From NCBI GenBank assembly GCA_009015555.1, contig GCA_009015555.1_3613.1: a stretch of 64,000 bases of DNA. The stretch is one strand, 5' to 3'. Below the pieces are notes generated by a model, which was given only the letters and a program-made list of their open reading frames with translations, was not told where the DNA came from and did no database searches. Shown piece by piece: positions 2,308-12,991 of the stretch. The first letter of the stretch is position 1, and the number at the start of each line of letters is the position of its first letter. This DNA comes from a phage. The position numbers were made by a program, and so were the translations under genes.

Positions 2308-2922
2308 ATGGCACAACCTCATCTGGAAGTGTTCCAGAGCGAATACCACATGCTCAAGTTCTTCGGTCAATACCTGCCGAAACTGGACGTTGACGCATCT
2401 GCCCGCCTGGCACCGTTCCTGTATTCCTATGACAACGAACTGGTGATGGGCCGAAACCTTTATGAGTTCCTGAACCAGATTGAAGCGATGACCGCACTGG
2501 GCATCAATACGATCGCATCTGTTCAGAAAGGTGCTGCATTCCTCGTCTTCTTCGACGAGACCCCTAAGTCTCCAGAGAAGTTCTTGGCTAACATCGGTGA
2601 GATCAAGGCGGCTCGCGCCAACGTGATCCCAGAAGATGTTGAGACCGAGGTGGAATCACCACTGTCCTCTCTGGTACAAACAACTGTAATTGATCCTACG
2701 CCGGAAGTCAAGGAAGAAGTGAAGGAAGAAGAAAAATCTGCTTCTGCCCGCACTGACGAACAAAAGGCAGAGATCCTCGCTCATGCAGAAACCCTGCGTG
2801 ACGACACCAAAAAAGCGGCTGCTAAGGCTGCGCTGGAATCCTACGCTTTGACTATGGAGATCTCTCTGAGCAAGGCTAAGACTTTTGACGCAATGTTGGA
2901 AGACCTGAAAGCTGCACTGTAA
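2308..2922 (+). CDS. hypothetical protein with acidic EVKEEVKEEEK linker
   Basis: 204-aa ORF with RBS GAAGGAG. Confidence 0.55.
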   Translation: MAQPHLEVFQSEYHMLKFFGQYLPKLDVDASARLAPFLYSYDNELVMGRNLYEFLNQIEAMTALGINTIASVQKGAAFLVFFDETPKSPEKFLANIGEIKAARANVIPEDVETEVESPLSSLVQTTVIDPTPEVKEEVKEEEKSASARTDEQKAEILAHAETLRDDTKKAAAKAALESYALTMEISLSKAKTFDAMLEDLKAAL

Positions 2923-2982: not shown

Positions 2983-5900
2983 ATGGCACAATATGAAGAT
3001 AAGGTCGTGGAAGTTCTGGTGACTCTCCCGGAACCGTCTGCGAGCACCTCTGGTGGTTCTGGTGCGCCTTTCACGGGCATCGAAACCCAAGACACCGTAT
3101 CCACCACACTGATTGGTGATGGTACTCAATCCTCCCCTCTGCAAGCAAACATCAACATCTCCCGTCGTTCAGGAAACCGCCTCCAAGTGGTGAGCACCTC
3201 CAGTGAGCAGGGTCTGTATGTTGCTGGCTCCGACACCAAGGTGTCTGCTAAGGATGGGAACACCGTAACTTACATCTCCGCCCAAGATGCGGCTAACGCT
3301 GGCAACCCGGCCCTGGAAGGTGTATACTCTGATCCGGTGAACGTGTCAACCACGTCACCGAAGAAGACTCTGGAAATTAAGGCTGATCCTACCGGGAAAG
3401 CCAAGACCCAAATCGACGTGATCGTTGATCCAGATTCCATGAACGCCCTGAAGGTAGGCACTGCTGGCCTGAGCGTTCCTGTTTCTGTGGCTCAAGACAA
3501 CACTCTGGAAATCCGCCAGGGTGCTCTGTACGTCCGCCCGCAAGAGACTAAAATCTCCCAAGACCCAAACAACAAGATTCAAGTCAAGTCTGACGGGATT
3601 TACGTTGACACTGTAAAAGGTGATAAAGGTGATACCGGGGCAACTGGCCCGGAAGGCCCTCAAGGCCCACAGGGAGACCCGGGTCCTCAAGGTCCGCAAG
3701 GCCCGCAGGGCGATAAGGGTGATAAAGGTGACACCGGGGACGTAGGACCAGCGGGGGCAACTGGCCCGGCAGGGGCACAGGGTGCTCGTGGCCCAGAAGG
3801 TCCGAAAGGCCCGGCTGGTATTGGTATCAACGTCATCGATCAGCTTGACGAAGTTTCTCAGCTTCCGGCTGTTGCGGAAATGGAACTGGGCGACACTTAC
3901 GTTATTGGACAGAATTTCTGGACCGTTGTCAACGAAAACAACGTGAAGCAGTGGAAGGACATCGGTAACTTCGCGGGGCCTGAAGGTCTGTCTGCTTATG
4001 AAGTTGCAGAAGGCGCGGGCTTCGTTGGTACTGTTGATGAGTGGCTGGAATCCCTGAAAGGGGCTGACGGTATCGGTCTGCAAATTCTTGGTTCCTTCCC
4101 TGACCCGTCCTATCTGCCTGATGAAGGTAACAAGCCGGGTGACTGCTACATCATCCAAGACATGATGTATGTGTGGACAGGTGATGAAGATGGGTGGCAG
4201 ACTGTAGGTCAGATTGGCCCAGAGGGTAAATCTGCGTATCAGGTATGGCTGGCTAACGGTCACACCGGATCTCAGGTTGACTTTCTGAACTCCCTGGTTG
4301 GCCCACAAGGACCGAAAGGTGATAAAGGCGACAAAGGTGATACGGGTGCTGACGGTACTAACGCCAACGCCATCAACCTCTTGGGTAAAGTCGCAGACGA
4401 AGCGAGCCTCCCGGCTGGCGCGGATGCAGGCGATGCCTACCTGATCGGAACTAGCGTTTGGGTCTCCACTGGCAATGACAACTGGGAAAACCTCGGTGCC
4501 TTCCAAGGCCCTAAAGGTGATCAGGGGGATGTCGGCCCTGCTGGCCCGAAAGGCGACAAGGGGGACGCAGGTGACGTAGGCAAAGACAACTACGCATTGG
4601 CGGTAGAGAACGGGTTCCAAGGTTCCCTGAGCGACTACCTGGCATCTCTCAAAGGTGCGAAGGGCGACACTGGCCCGACTGGTCCGCGTGGTCTTACTGG
4701 TCCGCAGGGTGTGAAAGGTGACGCAGGGGAAGGTCTTGCGATCCTCGGATCAAAAGCTGATCCTTCAGAACTACCTTCCAATCCAGTAACTGGTGATGCG
4801 TGGCTGATCGGAGAAGACCTGTACATCTTCAACGGCACTGCTTGGGAGAATGCAGGCCCTGTCCGTGGTCCGAAAGGTGACACCGGAGCCACTGGCCCGG
4901 CTGGAGCTAAGGGTGACAAGGGTGACCAAGGCGAGAAAGGCGACAAGGGTGACCAAGGTGATGTCGGCCCGGCTGGCCCGGAAGGTCCGCAGGGGACTGG
5001 TCTGACGCCGAAAGGTTCTGTTCCTACAGTAGCAGATCTTCCTGACCAAGACAACACCAAAGGCGACTTCTGGGCTGTAGAGGAAGATGGCAATGGTTAC
5101 GCTTGGGATGGGTTGCAGTGGGTTGTTACTGGCCTGACTCGCGGCCCGCAAGGCGAGAAAGGCGACAAGGGCGACAAAGGGGATAAAGGTGATCCGGGGG
5201 ATACTGGTGCCACAGGCGCAGGTGTTATTCCGAAGGGAACTGTAACCTCTGCTGCGACCCTGCCTCCTACCGGGAACACCGTCGGTGATTACTACGTCAC
5301 TGAGGATACTGGGACCGGATACTCTTGGAACGGGACAACCTGGGTTGACTTGGGAGTTGTGCGTGGACCGCAAGGACCGCAGGGCGACAAAGGTGATACC
5401 GGAGACCAAGGTCCGCAAGGTGTGAAAGGTGACACTGGTGCTACAGGCCCTCAAGGCCCGCAAGGTGACATCGGCCCGGGCGTTGAGATCATGGGTAAAC
5501 TCAACAGCACCTCAGAACTGCCTTCAACCGGGCAACTGGGTCAGGGTTACCTGATTGACGGCGACTTCTGGGGATGGACTGGCTCTGCCTACGAAAACCT
5601 TGGACGTATCCAAGGCCCGGTTGGTCCTACTGGTCCTACTGGTGACCCAGGCCCTACGGGTCCGCAGGGTGTCAAGGGTGATAAGGGTGATCAAGGTTCC
5701 TTGTGGATCGTGTTCGACCATGACCCGGGTCCTGCTGATGGTCGTGTAGGTGACTACTTCCTTAACTCCTCAACGTTGCAGTTCTTCCGCAAGACGAACG
5801 CAACCACTTGGGCACCGATGGGTTACATGGGTGGCGGTAACGTTTACGATTCCCCGAAAGACGGCAAGCAGTACGCTCGTATCGACGGGGATTGGGAACT

Positions 5901-6264
5901 GGTCGAAGTTCTGGAAGCGCCTCAAGACAACGGCTACTACGTCCGTGCGAACGGTGCGTGGCAGAAACTGGATCGCTACGACCTGCGTGTCATGTCCGCA
6001 ACTGGCGCACTGGATGCTTCTGTATCCAACGTGTTCACCGTTGACGGAACCACGTCTAAGGCAATCACCATCTCCAACCTGCCAGCGGGTCGTGCGATGA
6101 CTGTGGTTGTTAAGTTCCTCGGTAAAGGTGGGTCCATGACTTGGCCTTCTCCGATGGCATGGTCTAACGGCACCCAGCCAGCACTTGGTACTACCCGTAC
6201 CATCCTGACGTTCTTCTGGGACGGCACGGACCTGACTGGTGTTCAGGCAATGACTGTAGACTAA
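2983..6264 (+). CDS. collagen-like fibre protein (multiple G-X-Y triple-helix blocks alternating with about 45-aa fibre repeats, C-terminal globular domain)
   Basis: Start moved to ATG at 2983 (RBS GGAG; N-terminus [11 protein letters not shown] resembles sheath-like gene at 11084); many [19 protein letters not shown]-type repeats; repeated LP..GD.Y/W..G..W....W.N.G modules. Confidence 0.8.
3604..5700 (+). repeat. tandem collagen G-X-Y coding repeats (ggtgataaaggtgacaccgg-type units)
   Basis: Repeated GGT GAY AAR GGY GAY ACY GG and CCN CAR GGN units visible across the gene. Confidence 0.7.
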
Positions 6265-6305: not shown

Positions 6306-6956
6306 ATGGCTGTAGATCCTACCAGCAAGGTTTATGCTTGGACACCGATGATTCGTTTGTCCGACATGAAATATCCTGTCTATCTTAGCGACTTCCTCAA
6401 AGAACATACTAACGTAAGTATTGGTTCTTACGTTTGGGAAAAGGACATGCGAGACCTGTGGGGTTATTGCATGGTTCATGATTCTGAAGTTCCTATTGGT
6501 GATGTGGTCACCGAAGGAAAACCGGAACTAAACGAAGAAGATGACCTGTGGTACAAGACTTGGGTTGCTCGTGATTTCTCCCCAGAAGAGATCGCAGAGA
6601 ACTTGGCCCGCGCCAAGGAAGATTATCGTACCCGTGCGTATCAGCAATATACCTCTGACCTTCAGTCGGGTGTGGCTGTTGACGGCGACGTTTTCTCTGT
6701 TGAACCACGAGAACTCCTGAACCTTGAACTGTCCAAAGCGTTTGCGTTTGCAAACTCTGAATCGGATGTTCTGATTCGCAAAGCTGATTACACAGTTTTG
6801 ACTCTACCGTCTGCGGATGCTGTTGTCAAGATTGATGAAATCCTGGCTGCAACTGCCAAGGTCCACCAGAACCTGTTGGCATACGTAAAAACTGTGTATG
6901 ACACCGAAGTCATCACAGACATCCCTGAAGTTCCTCAAACTTTCGTAGGAGAATAA
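6306..6956 (+). CDS. hypothetical protein (possible fibre assembly factor, by position)
   Basis: 216-aa ORF with RBS AAGGAGA; between two collagen-like genes. Confidence 0.55.
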   Translation: MAVDPTSKVYAWTPMIRLSDMKYPVYLSDFLKEHTNVSIGSYVWEKDMRDLWGYCMVHDSEVPIGDVVTEGKPELNEEDDLWYKTWVARDFSPEEIAENLARAKEDYRTRAYQQYTSDLQSGVAVDGDVFSVEPRELLNLELSKAFAFANSESDVLIRKADYTVLTLPSADAVVKIDEILAATAKVHQNLLAYVKTVYDTEVITDIPEVPQTFVGE

Positions 6957-6957
6957 C

Positions 6958-7269
6958 ATGGCAGCAATTGGCGGAGCATCCCTTGGTGTCCTGACTGGTT
7001 ACCAGATCATGGACCAAGCAACAGGAGAGAGCAAGACCATCTCTGAACTTTTTGCAGGTGGTGGCGGTACTCCCGGCCCGAAAGGTGACAAAGGTGATAC
7101 GGGAGACACTGGACCAGCAGGTCCAGCAGGCCCGGCGGGGGCAGCAGGTGCAGACGGTGTTGGAATCGCTGACATCGCAGCGGCTCGCTCAGGCGATACT
7201 GTAACTCTAACCTTCACCATGTCTGACTCTACAACGAAGACTGCATCTTTCGACCTTCCAGCCGCATAA
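6958..7269 (+). CDS. small collagen-like protein
   Basis: 103 aa; [34 protein letters not shown] block; RBS GGAGAA. Confidence 0.65.
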   Translation: MAAIGGASLGVLTGYQIMDQATGESKTISELFAGGGGTPGPKGDKGDTGDTGPAGPAGPAGAAGADGVGIADIAAARSGDTVTLTFTMSDSTTKTASFDLPAA

Positions 7270-7312: not shown

Positions 7313-8683
7313 ATGGGAACAATGAGGGGTATCACAGGGGAGCAGAACGGTGTATACTTCGGGTATGCACTTTACGATCTCGTTAACGAAAAACTTATCC
7401 CCTTTGACCAAATTGGCGAGGGGGGATCTTCTGTACCCGGCCCACAGGGTCCTCAAGGGGAGAAGGGGGATAAGGGAGACCCCGGTCCTCAAGGACCTCA
7501 AGGTGTCCAAGGAGAGCCGGGCAATCCTGGTGAACCAGGCCCTCAAGGGGAACAAGGCCCTCAGGGCGAGGCAGGGGAAATTGGTCCTCAAGGACCTCAG
7601 GGACCAGTAGGACCAACAGGCCCTCAGGGCGAGAAAGGGGAGAGGGGTGAACCAGGCCCTCAAGGTCCTGAAGGCCCTGCTGGCCCGCAAGGGGAACAGG
7701 GACCCGCCGGGGCAACAGGCCCCGTTGGACCTTCCGGTGCGACAGGTCTTGTATGGAGAGGGAACTATGATGATTCAGTCTCCTACGACGTTAACGATGC
7801 AGTTGGGTATCAGGGTGCCACATATTTCTCTACTCAGCCATCCACAGGTATCCCACCGGAATCTACTGGTACAAGGGTTAACGACCACTGGGCACTAATG
7901 GCCTCAGAAGGTGCGCCGGGACCAGTAGGTCCAGCAGGACCAACAGGCCCGCAGGGTTTGCAAGGACCAGTAGGACCCGCAGGGCCTTCCGGTGCGACAG
8001 GTCCTGCCGGACCCGCCGGACCACAAGGAGAGCAAGGCCCTCAAGGGCTACAAGGACCACAAGGTCAGCGAGGTATTCAAGGTGTTCCGGGTGAAAAAGG
8101 GGAAAAGGGAGATCAAGGACCAGTAGGTCCGGCAGGCCCTGCTGGCCCGCAAGGGGAACAGGGACCTCAGGGGGAGACTGGCCCTAAGGGAGATAAGGGT
8201 GACAATGCCCTCCCGACCATTTCTGGGATTTATGCCTCCCCGATCAACAAAACGAACTCTTGGATTCAACTCCCCGGTAACAACTTGGGGAATGTTCGTC
8301 TTATTCTCTCTGCAAACAACAATGTCTCTCAGACCCGAGTTGGTTTCTCCGCAGGAACTTCGTCAGTGGCGAAGAGGATCGGATTCTCTTATGCACTAAC
8401 AACAACTTACACGGACGTAAATCGTATTAAGACCGGGAGAACCGGCCCCACCTCGATCTCAAATACAGTAGTTTATCCGTCGGACTCTACTATCAACGTG
8501 GGGTTCGGCGACAAGGTAGTCCTTGTTGTTTTTTGCCACGACACCCTTGAAGCATGGGAAGTGACAGTGGCAGGGGTTGCCCAAAAAACTGCTGTGGGCG
8601 ACACAAGTGGGCGTTTGGCTGTACATGCAGTACAGATCTCCGGGGACAGTACGTTACTCACAGGTAATGTCTACAACCCATAA
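7313..8683 (+). CDS. collagen-like protein (two long G-X-Y regions, C-terminal globular domain)
   Basis: 456 aa; RBS AAGGAG; long [19 protein letters not shown] repeats. Confidence 0.75.
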
Positions 8684-9874: not shown

Positions 9875-10315
9875 ATGGCACGGGCTTATTCGTTGCTCTC
9901 AAGCAGAAACAGACTAATCCCTCGTGTCGAAGTGCAATGTCGGAAGCGTGAGTGGGTAAAGACAGACCCTGATAGCCCGTTTCTGAACGGCGGGCGGGAA
10001 GTGTTGTACACCCCGTTTACTGCCGTGGAATGCACTATTCAACCGATGCGTGGGAAAGCCATCCGTGACCAGAACAACCAGTTGATGATCGGCGGCGAGG
10101 AGGATTATGACTCCTACACCGTTTACTCTGAAACTCTGCTGTTCCGAGCGCGAGAGGGCACAGAACACCTTTCCGATCAGATGTTGCTGCCGGATTCCGG
10201 CGGCGGTCAGACATGGTTCACAGTGATGAAGGCGGACATGTATCCCTCTTCTGGTGTGCCTCGCTACCGCTACTACCTGATCGCTGTCCCTGTAGGGACT
10301 GAGGGAGGACTCTAA
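9875..10315 (+). CDS. hypothetical virion protein
   Basis: 146-aa ORF with RBS AAGGGGTGA. Confidence 0.5.
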   Translation: MARAYSLLSSRNRLIPRVEVQCRKREWVKTDPDSPFLNGGREVLYTPFTAVECTIQPMRGKAIRDQNNQLMIGGEEDYDSYTVYSETLLFRAREGTEHLSDQMLLPDSGGGQTWFTVMKADMYPSSGVPRYRYYLIAVPVGTEGGL

Positions 10316-11022
10316 TGGCCCTCCCTCTTGATTTTACAAACTCAGATGTCGTGATGGGAGCACTGACCAAGGCTGTCGGTCGTCTCTGTTTGGACGTAAC
10401 GGGTTATGATGTCGTTGAAGCTGATGAGACCATTCCAAAACCGGAAGGGCCATACATCCTCGTAGACCTTACTCTGCTTACCCCTCTCGACTGGGCAACA
10501 AACGAAGTGGTGGATGAAGAAGGTGTCGTTCATACGGCACACAACTATACCGCCAGCTATACCCTCACCGCTTACCGTGGGAAACCTCACTGGGCATTGT
10601 CCCGGGTGCATCAGGCTTTCGGCCTGCCGTTCATTCGTGAGAAATACTTCCCAACGGGGTCCCCTTATGCGTACTCTTCAACCTCGAACATTGCTCGAAT
10701 GCGTGTACCGCTGAACCAGCAAATGTTTGAGAACCGAGCACGAACCATTATCACTTTCAACGCGACATTCGTAGAGAAAGATATTGGGGCGTTCGAGGAT
10801 GTCGAGCACATCATTATCGGGATCGATATTGACAACCCTTCTGGTCCGCCTGTTGGTATTGAAGCAGACTATGACAAGGGTGTCAATCCCGGCGGTGATG
10901 ACCCTGGCCTACCACCAAAGCCTAACCCTCCGATCGTCTACCATGACGCCATCGCTCAGGTTTGTATGGCAACTCCGGTTATTGATAAGCCAGCGCTTAT
11001 CAGTGACAAGACGGGGGAGTAA
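10315..11022 (+). CDS. hypothetical virion protein (neck or tail completion, by position)
   Basis: 235-aa ORF; start overlaps upstream stop (TAATG); RBS GGAGGA. Confidence 0.5.
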   Translation: MALPLDFTNSDVVMGALTKAVGRLCLDVTGYDVVEADETIPKPEGPYILVDLTLLTPLDWATNEVVDEEGVVHTAHNYTASYTLTAYRGKPHWALSRVHQAFGLPFIREKYFPTGSPYAYSSTSNIARMRVPLNQQMFENRARTIITFNATFVEKDIGAFEDVEHIIIGIDIDNPSGPPVGIEADYDKGVNPGGDDPGLPPKPNPPIVYHDAIAQVCMATPVIDKPALISDKTGE

Positions 11023-11083: not shown

Positions 11084-12505
11084 ATGGCTGAATATCAAGA
11101 CAAGGTTGTTGACGTTGAGGTTAGCCTTGGCACTCAACCAATCGACACCGTTGGCTTTGAAACCCCGATGTTCCTGGCAATGCACGGCAACTTCCCAGAG
11201 CGTATTCGTTTCTACGTGTCCACTGCTGGGATGGTTGCTGATGGATTTGCAGTAGGTTCCCCGGCATATCAGTTTGCCACCAACGCATTCGCAGGGAACT
11301 TCGCCCCGCAGCGTGTGGCAATCGGACGTATGTCTCTGGAATCTACACGTGTGGACTTCACCGGGACCGCAAACACCGAACAGGTTGTCGTTAATATTAC
11401 CTTGAACAAGATGGTCAAGGCTGTTAAAATTAACGTACTGCCTGGAAACACCCCAGCCCAGATTGCTACGGCACTGGCTGATGCAGTTACCGCAGATGCA
11501 GATTTGACTGGCAAAGTCACTGCTGTTGCGAATGGGACTTATGTGACCATTTCAGCGGTATCTCCGAACGTGGTTAGCGTAGGTAAAGGCGCAGGTACTT
11601 ATAAGATCGTAAACGAATCTGGTGAGACTGTTGCAACTGCCCTGCCGTTCGTTCTTGCAGAGAACCACAACTGGTACTTCCTGTCAACGGAAGCCCGTTC
11701 TGATGCAGACATCGTTGCTGCCGCAGAGTTCTCCAAAGCGAACTACAAGCTGCACGTTTACAACTCCACCGATGTGGACGCATACGCCCCCGAGAACTCC
11801 GCTGCCTCCGTGTTCGACACGTTGAAGGCTCTGAGTTATGACTCTCTGGGAACATCCGACGCAGGTGCTGACGTTGACTTCACCGAAGGCTCTGTCATCG
11901 GCGCGATGGCTGCGAACGATCCTTCTTACGGCGACTCCTTGCACCTGAAAACGATGCCGGGTATGGTTCCGTTTGCTGGCTCCGACACTCAGCGTTCCAA
12001 CGCTTGGTCTCGTAACGCAAACATCTACCGTTCCCTGTACGGTGGTGGTAGCTACATCGAAGGTAAAACTTCTTCTGGGCAGTACGTTGACGTGATTCGC
12101 TTCTCCCATTGGGTTAAATTCCGTATGGAAGAATCCGTGTTCGCGTACATGAAGCGCCGTTCTGACATGGGTCTGTCCATGAAGATGAGCGACGAAGACC
12201 TGCCTGTACTGAAGTCTGTTCTGATGAACAACCCGATCAACATCGGTATTCGTAATGGTGGTATTCTGACTGGCTACGACGCTGAAAACAAAGTGTCCTA
12301 CGACCCGACGATCACTATTCCGAAACGCGCCCAGATCCCGACGAATGACCTTGCTGCACGTATCCTGCGTGACGTGAAGGTAGAGCTTGTGTACAACAAC
12401 TCTCTGCACTACGTTAAGATCCGCGCTTCCGTTGTACTGGATCGCCCGGCGGGCCAGAGCACCAACGCTCAGGCCCCGATGTCTTCCTCTGCTGTAGGAG
12501 TGTAA
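11084..12505 (+). CDS. tail sheath-like protein
   Basis: 473 aa; N-terminus MAEYQDKVVDVEV resembles sheath N-termini; followed by 160-aa tube-size gene, frameshifted chaperone pair and tape measure. Confidence 0.5.
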   Translation: MAEYQDKVVDVEVSLGTQPIDTVGFETPMFLAMHGNFPERIRFYVSTAGMVADGFAVGSPAYQFATNAFAGNFAPQRVAIGRMSLESTRVDFTGTANTEQVVVNITLNKMVKAVKINVLPGNTPAQIATALADAVTADADLTGKVTAVANGTYVTISAVSPNVVSVGKGAGTYKIVNESGETVATALPFVLAENHNWYFLSTEARSDADIVAAAEFSKANYKLHVYNSTDVDAYAPENSAASVFDTLKALSYDSLGTSDAGADVDFTEGSVIGAMAANDPSYGDSLHLKTMPGMVPFAGSDTQRSNAWSRNANIYRSLYGGGSYIEGKTSSGQYVDVIRFSHWVKFRMEESVFAYMKRRSDMGLSMKMSDEDLPVLKSVLMNNPINIGIRNGGILTGYDAENKVSYDPTITIPKRAQIPTNDLAARILRDVKVELVYNNSLHYVKIRASVVLDRPAGQSTNAQAPMSSSAVGV

Positions 12506-12508
12506 TAG

Positions 12509-12991
12509 ATGCTGAACCAATCCAAAATCTTGACGATGCAGGCGTATGACCCTGCGAAAGTCCTCGTCTTTATTGGTGGACAGCGTGTCTCTGGATTTGC
12601 AGCGGATACGAAGATCGTTATTACTCGTAACAACGACAACATCACCGTTCATGCGGGTGTTGACGGCGAGATCAGTAACGCACTGTCCCGTGATAACACC
12701 GGGGTCATGACCCTCTCCCTCCAGAACACGGCCCAATGGAACGGCTATCTGGCCCAGTGGCAGCGCCAGGCTAACGTAACTGGCCTGATTTATCTGCCTG
12801 TCCAAGTGGAAGGTTCTCAGGGTCTGTCCCTGAACACCATCGGCTGGATTCAGAAGCAGCCTGACCTGAGCTACGGCTCCGAAGTTGGTCAGATGGACTG
12901 GGAAATCGGTGTACTGGACGCATGGCTGTCTCCTGACCAGATTCAAGGCGTCGCTGCCGGGATCACTGGTCTGGTTGGACTGGACCAATAA
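12509..12991 (+). CDS. tail tube-like protein
   Basis: 160-aa ORF directly after sheath-like gene; RBS GGAG. Confidence 0.45.
   Translation: MLNQSKILTMQAYDPAKVLVFIGGQRVSGFAADTKIVITRNNDNITVHAGVDGEISNALSRDNTGVMTLSLQNTAQWNGYLAQWQRQANVTGLIYLPVQVEGSQGLSLNTIGWIQKQPDLSYGSEVGQMDWEIGVLDAWLSPDQIQGVAAGITGLVGLDQ

What the first reader, a model, noticed from the sequence alone, without database searches (positions are those of the whole stretch)
2983..3030. Collagen fibre protein and sheath-like protein share a sheath-type N-terminus
The first 15 residues of gene 2983..6264 ([15 protein letters not shown]) and of the sheath-like gene 11084..12505 (MAEYQDKVVDVEVSL) are near-identical in pattern but encoded by diverged codons. 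Sheath N-terminal arms take part in inter-subunit strand exchange. A fibre carrying the same arm could dock into the sheath or capsid lattice, or the 11084 gene could itself be a fibre-related protein rather than a true sheath.
Basis: seen in the sequence. Interest (0 to 1): 0.55.

Follow-up and report, generated by a model that had tools for sequence, protein, structure and literature searches.

The report
Phage fibre copies sheath handshake strand
A long collagen-like fibre of this phage begins with a 15-residue copy of the strand that tail-sheath subunits use to clip onto each other, which most likely anchors the fibre to the virion, an attachment mode I found described nowhere.

Summary
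The window is a Certrevirus (CR3/phiTE-like myophage). Fibre gene 2983..6264 and sheath gene 11084..12505 share their first 15 residues (10 identical, 14 similar). This is the best of 4,656 N-terminus pairs in the window (z = 7.3), with diverged codons and unrelated upstream DNA.

Gene 11084 is a true sheath, about 97% identical to the cryo-EM-solved phiTE sheath. In that structure residues E3-L15 form strand S4 of the four-stranded "hinge" (handshake) sheet that links sheath subunits.

The same start (Y-x-D-K-V-V-x-[VA]-x-[VL]-x-[LVA]-P, then a variable Gly/Ser linker) occurs in every fibre homologue aligned from residue 1. These span at least six lineages and carry different distal domains (collagen fibre, non-collagen fibre, pectate-lyase spike). 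Generic shaft repeats begin at about residue 30, so residues 1-29 are the only candidate virion anchor. Orthologues are abundant virion proteins by mass spectrometry, yet the phiTE structural atlas never mentions this protein.

Best explanation (about 0.5): anchoring by beta-strand augmentation of a sheath-type hinge sheet, probably at the neck.

Main difficulty: in the phiTE model the tail terminator already fills those sites. No complex could be modelled here.

The parts
2983..3030 (+). Fibre residues 1-16 ([16 protein letters not shown]): a copy of the sheath S4 hinge strand, ended by Pro. This is the proposed virion anchor.
   Evidence: Conserved in 16 unique fibre N-termini and in more distant homologues. 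Invariant Y, D, K, V, V show synonymous codon variation.
3031..3069 (+). Fibre residues 17-29 ([13 protein letters not shown]): a Gly/Ser/Pro-rich linker whose length and sequence vary between lineages.
   Evidence: Alignments of N-termini from several lineages.
3070..3618 (+). Fibre residues 30-212: non-collagen shaft made of a widespread fibre repeat (F-x-G-I-x-T-x-D-T...G-D-G-T...P-L...G-L-Y-V).
   Evidence: Representative-library hits that lack the N-terminal motif match only this region, in up to 13 repeated stretches. PHROG 3904 aligns from residue 19.
3619..5703 (+). Fibre residues 213-907: eight collagen (G-X-Y) segments totalling 285 residues, alternating with knob segments of about 45 residues.
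   Evidence: Pfam PF01391, E = 4e-32. Segment map.
5704..6264 (+). Fibre residues 908-1093: C-terminal region with two foldon-like motifs (about residues 941-990, window 5803-5952) and a distal domain of about 100 residues, presumably the receptor-binding tip.
   Evidence: Weak, sub-threshold Pfam Fibritin_C hit at 941-974. Sequence read. PHROG 19200 covers 827-1093.
6306..6956 (+). 216-aa protein encoded directly downstream of the fibre in every lineage examined except Kashira (where the gene after the fibre encodes a 63-aa protein): DUF4376 / tail(-fibre) assembly chaperone-like fold.
   Evidence: AlphaFold2 with 40 sequences, mean pLDDT 94. BFVD Foldseek hits to DUF4376 and 'phage tail assembly chaperone' proteins. 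No gp25-like or sheath D1-like fold. Orthologues CB7_11 and W70_130 were detected in virions.
10315..11022 (+). Tail terminator (235 aa). Its C-terminal extension (residues 172-235, window 10828-11019) supplies three hinge-sheet strands in phiTE. The last one (IVYHDAIAQV) also fits the S4 pattern Y-x-D-x-[VI]-x-x-V.
   Evidence: Pfam PF23961. PDB 9cc7_F 'PhiTE tail terminator', E = 4e-157. Paper text. Alignment of terminators of 176-235 aa.
11084..12505 (+). Tail sheath (473 aa). By identity with phiTE: S4 = residues 3-15 (window 11090-11128); acceptor hairpin S1 = 407-413 (12302-12322) and S2 = 427-436 (12362-12391); C-arm S3 = 443-451 (12410-12436).
   Evidence: PDB 9cb9_A, E = 1e-298. Strand boundaries from PMC11972413. 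Strand sequences read.
12509..12991 (+). Tail tube protein (context: confirms the identity of the sheath gene).
   Evidence: PHROG 280. Annotated next to the sheath in CR3, phiTE and rV5.

Best explanation
The fibre's first 15 residues are a functional copy of the sheath's N-terminal arm, strand S4 of the four-stranded hinge ('handshake') sheet. They are tethered by a flexible linker of about 13 residues to a trimeric collagen-like shaft. I propose this peptide is the fibre's virion anchor. It would bind by beta-strand augmentation to a sheath-type acceptor (the S1-S2 hairpin plus an S3-type strand), in the way the tail terminator and the sheath initiator are known to bind. The most likely site is the head-proximal end of the sheath, which would make the protein a neck or 'whisker'-type accessory fibre.

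The module behaves as a portable adaptor. The same anchor carries different distal domains in different phages. The fibre plus chaperone cassette is present or absent among relatives whose sheath N-terminus and terminator are the same.

Shown:
- Identity of the segment with S4.
- Its conservation and modularity.
- Presence of orthologous fibres in virions.

Inferred:
- That it inserts into a hinge sheet.
- Where it inserts.
- That the roughly 100 nm or longer fibre serves host capture, for example of flagella in Certrevirus.
For: 1. The sheath is about 97% identical to the solved phiTE sheath, whose residues E3-L15 form S4.
2. The fibre and sheath 15-mers align without gaps. Y, D, K, V, V and the alternating hydrophobic face are shared. 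The same positions vary in both proteins.
3. The motif is kept in Certrevirus, SSBI34, Septuagintavirus (W70, UPEC06), Kashira, Seunavirus, Av-05 and metagenomic relatives. Of 105 pairwise comparisons at the invariant core codons, 39 differ, all synonymously.
4. An IMG/VR scan for ORFs starting with this motif found only two real protein classes: sheaths and this fibre family.
5. The generic shaft repeat begins at about residue 30, so residues 1-29 are the only family-specific N-terminal element.
6. The same N-terminus heads a pectate-lyase beta-helix spike (P0112), a non-collagen 510-aa fibre (P0065) and a chimera ending in the small head-fibre domain (P0064).
7. Strand mimicry of sheath arms by non-sheath proteins is established. 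The phiTE terminator donates three strands and the sheath initiator donates the acceptor. Similar terminator behaviour is described for phi92 and Milano.
8. Orthologues are virion proteins: CB7_10 with 39 unique peptides, and W70_131 with the highest spectrum count in the W70 virion protein table as read.
9. The gene lies between the head and neck genes.
Against: - The phiTE neck model fills every S4-type site with terminator or sheath strands, and the paper's main text reports no unassigned neck density.
- The number of terminator strands varies from one (Seunavirus, 176 aa) to three (Certrevirus, 235 aa) among fibre-bearing lineages, while the fibre motif stays the same. That is not what one expects if the fibre simply fills a vacancy left by the terminator.
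- Fibre and cognate sheath do not co-vary (permutation p = 0.5). The evidence is conservation only.
- Fibre positions 9 and 11 are more hydrophobic than in S4, which hints at a partly different environment.
- No complex prediction or map inspection was possible.
- The high spectral count in W70 could indicate more copies than a six-fold neck site would hold.
Confidence: 0.5

Rival explanations
1. The peptide is a virion anchor, but its acceptor is not the sheath. It would insert into a capsid vertex or a neck protein (adaptor, head completion protein or terminator core), as adenovirus fibre tails insert into the penton base. The resemblance to S4 would then reflect ancestry, a captured sheath gene 5' end later retained for a new partner.
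For: - The gene sits in the head module, next to small head-fibre ('Pagoda') genes.
- Flagellotropic myophage 7-7-1 carries fibres of about 100 nm on its capsid vertices.
- The phiTE neck model shows no free S4 site.
- W70 spectral counts suggest a fairly abundant protein.
- Fibre positions 9 and 11 differ in character from S4.
Against: - The core Y-x-D-K-V-V and the hydrophobic face remain the same as the sheath's in lineages whose sheaths are only about 55-60% identical. That is hard to explain if the partner had changed.
- The passages of the phiTE capsid section read here describe hexamer-centre Pagoda density and no vertex fibres; that section was not read in full.
- No sheath D1-like acceptor paralogue is detectable in the window.
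Confidence: 0.25
2. The shared N-terminus has an assembly or regulatory role rather than being the final anchor. One option is recognition by a common factor. Another is transient capping of sheath acceptor sites, which would time fibre loading or restrain premature sheath polymerisation.
For: - In the phiTE model the N-arm of the first sheath ring is displaced and 'pinned in an alternate conformation'. S4-type strands therefore have at least one alternative binding mode near the neck.
- The adjacent gene encodes a chaperone-like DUF4376 protein.
Against: - Nothing else lies upstream of the shaft that could anchor an abundant virion protein.
- The anchor travels with different distal domains, as virion-attachment modules of receptor-binding proteins do.
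- Relatives without the fibre have the same sheath and terminator, so the peptide is not needed for tail assembly.
Confidence: 0.12
3. The similarity is chance, or a nucleotide-level effect such as a shared translation-initiation context or a recent gene-conversion tract.
For: The match is only 15 residues long. The pairwise BLASTP E-value alone is modest (0.011).
Against: - It is the top pair of 4,656 in the window, z = 7.3.
- It recurs in every lineage with independent codon usage.
- The upstream regions are unrelated.
- The register is exact from residue 1.
Confidence: 0.03

Closest known systems
Tail terminator C-terminal arm in contractile tails (phiTE pTE221, phi92 gp129, Milano gp18, R-type pyocin)
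   Same: A non-sheath protein supplies a terminal beta-strand that substitutes for a sheath arm in the handshake or hinge sheet of the top sheath ring(s). The third strand of the Certrevirus terminator even follows the S4 pattern Y-x-D-x-[VI]-x-x-V.
   Different: Here the mimic sits at the N-terminus of a long fibre, behind a flexible linker. It copies S4 almost residue for residue. It belongs to an accessory cassette that is dispensable in close relatives. Its insertion has not been shown structurally.
Sheath initiator (T4 gp25 / TssE family; phiTE SI, phi92 gp139)
   Same: It takes part in the same four-stranded sheet with sheath N- and C-arms at the other end of the tail.
   Different: It provides the acceptor hairpin, not the donor strand. 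Neither the fibre nor its neighbour shows that fold.
T4 fibritin (wac) whiskers/collar, and the Bas63/Sf14 and XM1 collar-whisker complexes
   Same: Trimeric accessory fibres around the neck, encoded beside the neck genes. The fibre has foldon-like motifs near its C-terminus. Bas63 whiskers contact the terminator and sheath rings 1-2.
   Different: Those fibres attach through folded N-terminal or Ig-like collar domains to neck proteins and are coiled coils. This fibre is collagen-like, and only a 29-residue peptide precedes its shaft. The Fibritin_C hit is below threshold (19.4 bits against 21).
Adenovirus fibre N-terminal tail / penton base, and the capsid fibres of flagellotropic phage 7-7-1
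   Same: A trimeric shaft is anchored by a short conserved N-terminal peptide that tolerates a symmetry mismatch. Long flexible fibres are used for first contact with flagella.
   Different: The acceptor there is a capsid penton. No sequence relationship was found, and the peptide here copies a tail-sheath strand.
Phage collagen-like tail fibres with a DUF4376 chaperone (PF01391-containing fibres; PHROG 3904)
   Same: G-X-Y repeats, knob inserts, and a chaperone-like gene immediately downstream.
   Different: The sheath-arm N-terminus is specific to this Vequintavirinae-associated family.

Membership tests
Contractile tail sheath, phiTE type (PHROG 205), for gene 11084..12505 | Full-length homology to an experimentally solved sheath subunit | tested here: met
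   9cb9_A 'Tail sheath protein', residues 1-473 on 1-473, E = 1e-298. phi92 gp130, E = 4e-50. PHROG 205, E = 3e-110.
Contractile tail sheath, phiTE type (PHROG 205), for gene 11084..12505 | Gene order terminator - sheath - tube - chaperone - tape measure | tested here: met
Contractile tail sheath, phiTE type (PHROG 205), for gene 11084..12505 | N-arm (S4), C-arm (S3) and acceptor hairpin (S1, S2) of the hinge sheet | tested here: met
   The sequences at the phiTE coordinates are present and strand-like. Boundaries come from PMC11972413. This rests on sequence identity, not on a structure of this phage.
Collagen-like phage fibre (PF01391; PHROG 3904), for gene 2983..6264 | Multiple G-X-Y triple-helix segments | tested here: met
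   PF01391, 110 bits against a cutoff of 27.2. Eight segments, 285 residues.
Collagen-like phage fibre (PF01391; PHROG 3904), for gene 2983..6264 | Component of the virion | not testable with these tools
   Literature on orthologues only: CB7_10 with 39 unique peptides and W70_131 with 2,032 spectra.
Collagen-like phage fibre (PF01391; PHROG 3904), for gene 2983..6264 | Dedicated assembly chaperone encoded downstream | tested here: met
   The neighbour 6306..6956 has a DUF4376 / tail assembly chaperone-like fold. Fold resemblance only; function was not tested.
Donors of a handshake/hinge-sheet strand (sheath arms, terminator C-arm) | A terminal segment with the S4 sequence pattern and beta-strand periodicity | tested here: met
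Donors of a handshake/hinge-sheet strand (sheath arms, terminator C-arm) | The strand is physically inserted next to S3 and S1-S2 of a sheath subunit | not testable with these tools
   No multimer prediction and no access to maps. The published phiTE model assigns these sites to the terminator.
Donors of a handshake/hinge-sheet strand (sheath arms, terminator C-arm) | Co-variation with the cognate sheath | tested here: not met
   Mean cognate score 34.6 against 34.5 for non-cognate pairs, permutation p = 0.50. The core is invariant, so the test has little power.
T4 fibritin (wac) | C-terminal foldon (PF07921) | tested here: inconclusive
   19.4 bits, below the 21-bit cutoff, at residues 941-974. 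Two APxDGxxYxRxxGxW-like motifs can be read in the sequence.
T4 fibritin (wac) | Coiled-coil shaft and a folded N-terminal neck-binding domain | tested here: not met
   The shaft is collagen plus beta-repeats. Only 29 residues precede it.

The most novel reading that the evidence does not exclude
[quoted passage not shown] If so, part of what the published phiTE neck model assigns to the terminator, or to an 'alternate conformation' of the sheath arm, is really pTE215. The fibre would then be mechanically wired to the strand that pivots during contraction. That would couple capture of a flagellum or the cell surface by a neck fibre of 100 nm or more to the state of the sheath and neck. It would also define a portable 'sheath-arm tag' for attaching arbitrary receptor-binding domains to contractile tails.
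Probability: 0.2. Interest if true: 0.8.

Novelty: new variant of a known kind. Interest (0 to 1): 0.62.

Why it matters
Strand mimicry in the sheath handshake is known for the proteins that cap the two ends of the sheath. It has not been described for a fibre.

If the anchor works as proposed, it would:
- explain how an abundant virion protein missing from the phiTE structural atlas is attached;
- identify a candidate for first contact with flagella in flagellotropic Certrevirus phages;
- provide a 15-residue tag, plus linker, that nature already uses to mount collagen fibres, non-collagen fibres and a depolymerase spike on one tail chassis. That would be useful for engineering phage or tailocin host range.

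It also prompts a specific re-inspection of the published neck maps.

Tried and rejected
2. A D1 paralogue elsewhere in the window: none found by phmmer.
3. Co-variation between the fibre and its own sheath: none.
4. A DNA-level explanation (shared ribosome-binding region or recent conversion): rejected.
5. A word-indexed homologue search with fibre residues 1-210 returned only two fragments. The exhaustive representative search was needed.
6. A PDB sequence search with fibre residues 1-246 found only collagens, so the fibre is not in any deposited phiTE entry.
7. A tblastn hit of sheath residues 4-37 to 'Salmonella phage 41' is an UNVERIFIED, fragmented record and was ignored.
9. The contigs carrying the divergent fibre P0061 (YDDIVV) end before the sheath gene. 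This natural K-to-I co-variation test could therefore not be done.
10. Rfam and tRNA scans of the window found nothing.
Full report
**What the window is.** Megablast places both genes in the genus Certrevirus (Vequintavirinae). The fibre gene is 98.3% identical to Cronobacter phage CR3, and the sheath gene is 98.7% identical to Pectobacterium phage P7_Pc. The annotated gene order in CR3, P7_Pc, phiTE and KaOmega runs as follows:
- major capsid protein;
- a 204-aa protein;
- the collagen-like protein (2983..6264);
- a 216-aa protein;
- one or two small collagen-containing proteins;
- adaptor, neck and head-completion proteins;
- tail terminator (10315..11022);
- sheath (11084..12505);
- tube (12509..12991).

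**The observation.**
- The two proteins begin [15 protein letters not shown] and MAEYQDKVVDVEVSL.
- BLASTP aligns residues 1-15 with 1-15 (10/15 identical, 14/15 positive). Nothing else in the proteins is related.
- The motif occurs nowhere else in six frames of the window.
- Among 4,656 pairs of ORF N-termini this pair scores 46 against a next best of 26 (z = 7.3).
- Thirty-two of 48 bases match. Six identical residues use different codons, and the upstream DNA is unrelated.
- ATG 2983 has a GGAG ribosome-binding site 8-9 bases upstream and is the annotated start in relatives.

**What the shared segment is.**
- Gene 11084 is a bona fide sheath. It matches the deposited phiTE tail sheath chain 9cb9_A end to end (E = 1e-298) and phi92 gp130 (E = 4e-50). 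It also matches PHROG 205.
- The phiTE cryo-EM paper (PMC11972413) describes a four-stranded 'hinge sheet' as the main link of the sheath lattice. S1 (D407-P413) and S2 (I427-V436) come from one subunit. S3 (Y443-V451) is the C-arm of a head-proximal subunit. S4 (E3-L15) is the N-terminal strand of the neighbouring head-proximal subunit. S4 is the pivot that rotates during contraction.
- The segment copied by the fibre is therefore exactly S4.

**Conservation.** I extracted fibre and sheath starts from phage records of several lineages: Certrevirus, SSBI34, Septuagintavirus W70 and UPEC06, Serratia phage Kashira, and Seunavirus KE23, 4MG, GAP31, LNA4 and EC152.
- Every fibre starts (M)(A)x-Y-x-D-K-V-V-[EN]-[VA]-x-[VL]-x-[LVA]-P, followed by a Gly/Ser/Thr-rich linker of variable length, then the conserved block F-x-G-I-x-T-x-D-T.
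- Every sheath starts Y-x-D-K-V-V-[DE]-V-x-V-x-L-G-T-Q-P.
- Four degenerate-pattern scans of IMG/VR (parsed) gave 16 unique fibre starts and 20 unique sheath starts. Beyond scattered short chance ORFs, no third protein class carries the motif at its start.
- Invariant residues show synonymous codon variation: 39 of 105 pairwise comparisons at the core codons differ.
- There is no cognate-specific co-variation (p = 0.5). The core is simply invariant in both proteins.

**Modularity.** An exhaustive HMMER search of 1.84 billion representatives with fibre residues 1-212 gave two kinds of hit.
- Every hit aligned from residue 1 keeps the motif. Variants include YDDIVV, YQDKTV and YEDKIV. The distal parts differ: collagen fibres of about 900-1,100 aa, a 510-aa fibre without collagen, a 318-aa chimera ending in the C-terminal domain of the small head-fibre protein, and a 699-aa pectate-lyase beta-helix spike (P0112, Pfam hits).
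- Hits without the motif (P0066, P0067 and others) share only a shaft repeat that begins at about fibre residue 30, in up to 13 copies.
- Residues 1-29 are therefore the only family-specific element in front of a generic shaft. This is where receptor-binding proteins normally carry their virion-attachment module.

**Distribution of the cassette.**
- The fibre plus neighbour cassette is absent from rV5-type phages, Mydovirus-type phages and some Seunavirus-like genomes. Their sheath N-termini and terminators are otherwise the same.
- It is thus an accessory module that uses something already present in the chassis.

**The neighbour gene.**
- The 216-aa protein (6306..6956) folds with high confidence (pLDDT 94).
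- It resembles DUF4376 / tail assembly chaperone proteins. It does not resemble gp25 or sheath domain D1.
- It is therefore not an acceptor for the strand.

**Virion presence.**
- CB7_10, the Certrevirus orthologue, gave 39 unique peptides at 46% coverage.
- W70_131 gave the highest spectrum count in the W70 virion protein table as read (2,032 against 1,596 for the capsid protein and 311 for the sheath) and was visible by SDS-PAGE.
- In the main text of the phiTE structural atlas, searches for 'collagen', 'whisker', 'neck fiber' and 'collar' found nothing. Searches for pTE1, pTE0 and pTE2 returned only pTE217 and pTE203 in the passages shown; pTE215 was not searched by name.
- The atlas assigns pTE217 to the unmodelled 'Pagoda' density at hexamer centres and leaves a 'third putative fiber' unmodelled. 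The supplement was not available.

**Mechanism.**
- Non-sheath proteins are already known to complete handshake sheets. The terminator C-arm does so in pyocin, Milano, phi92 and phiTE, and the sheath initiator does so at the baseplate.
- The simplest reading is that the fibre's strand does the same, so the fibre hangs from a sheath-type hinge sheet.
- Because sheath arms point from head-proximal to head-distal subunits, open acceptor sites exist only at the top ring. This fits the gene's position between the head and neck genes and the whisker-like design.
- With 285 collagen residues plus knobs and shaft repeats, my estimate is a fibre of at least about 100 nm, comparable to the tail.
- A role in first contact with flagella is plausible for Certrevirus, by analogy with the capsid fibres of phage 7-7-1. 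This is inference.

**The main difficulty.**
- In phiTE the terminator's C-terminal extension is modelled as three strands: S3 and S4 of the first sheet, and S4 of the sheet between rings 1 and 2. The ring-1 sheath N-arm is 'pinned in an alternate conformation'. No canonical site is left.
- The terminator sequence is compatible with that model. It reads HIIIGIDID / IEADYDKGV / a Pro-rich linker / IVYHDAIAQV, and the third strand itself follows Y-x-D-x-[VI]-x-x-V.
- Terminator length varies from 176 to 235 aa among fibre-bearing lineages, while the fibre motif does not change.
- The possibilities are these:
  - the fibre shares or alternates sites with the terminator;
  - it pairs with the displaced arm;
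  - part of the published assignment is really the fibre;
  - the acceptor lies elsewhere.
- I could not model complexes or inspect maps, so the site remains inferred. I put 0.5 on sheath-type hinge docking, 0.25 on another acceptor, 0.12 on an assembly role and 0.03 on chance.

**Novelty.** The papers I could search describe this protein only as a putative tail fibre with a collagen domain. None mentions the sheath-like N-terminus. It is best classed as a new variant of a known principle, handshake-strand mimicry, applied to fibre attachment.

Noticed in passing
window 6958..7269 and 7313..8683: Two adjacent genes (103 aa and 456 aa) share an N-terminal domain of about 35 residues followed by collagen repeats (37% identity over residues 1-67, E = 5e-10). 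They correspond to the 'head fiber' (PF11133-type) genes of other Vequintavirinae and to phiTE pTE217, which the cryo-EM paper assigns to the unmodelled 'Pagoda' density at capsid hexamer centres. This window has two paralogues where phiTE and KaOmega have one.
   Followed up: partly
window 10828..11019 (tail terminator residues 172-235): The terminator's C-terminal extension varies greatly between lineages: 176 aa in Seunavirus, 180-183 in Mydovirus and rV5, 192-193 in SSBI34 and Kashira, 219 in W70, 235 in Certrevirus. The last strand in Certrevirus (IVYHDAIAQV) and W70 (FTYIDTIVTV) follows the S4 pattern Y-x-D-x-[VI]-x-x-V. It is a second, independent mimic of the sheath N-arm in the same genome.
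   Followed up: partly
[not shown]
   Followed up: partly
window 5803..5952 (fibre residues 941-990): Two tandem foldon-like motifs ([23 protein letters not shown] and [20 protein letters not shown]) resemble the T4 fibritin C-terminal trimerisation unit. The Pfam hit is just below threshold. The distant homologues P0062 and P0093 carry four or more such motifs.
   Followed up: no
L002 6079..9147 (P7_Pc) compared with window 2983..6264: The fibre varies in length between near-identical phages: 1,023 aa in P7_Pc, 1,093 here and in CR3, 1,099 in phiTE, 1,117 in KaOmega, 1,266 in W70. Megablast shows gapped pieces in the collagen region, which suggests expansion and contraction of collagen repeats.
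   Followed up: no
L334 94..2193 (protein P0112): A 699-aa protein has the same sheath-arm start (MATYEDKVVNADVDL) and one shaft repeat but ends in a pectate-lyase-type right-handed beta-helix. The anchor is therefore also used to mount a putative depolymerase spike. A PF11133 head-fibre gene lies downstream, as in the window.
   Followed up: partly
L332 and L333 (protein P0061): A divergent fibre starts MSREYDDIVVEVNVEVP, with Lys replaced by Ile in the core. Both contigs end before the sheath gene, so I could not see whether the cognate S4 carries the same change.
   Followed up: partly
window 2308..2922: The 204-aa protein between the capsid gene and the fibre matches PHROG 1051 'inhibitor of protease' only at its C-terminus. 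It corresponds to Pfam PF26097 (Phage_Inh_N) in related contigs and is annotated as a prohead protease inhibitor in rV5.
   Followed up: no
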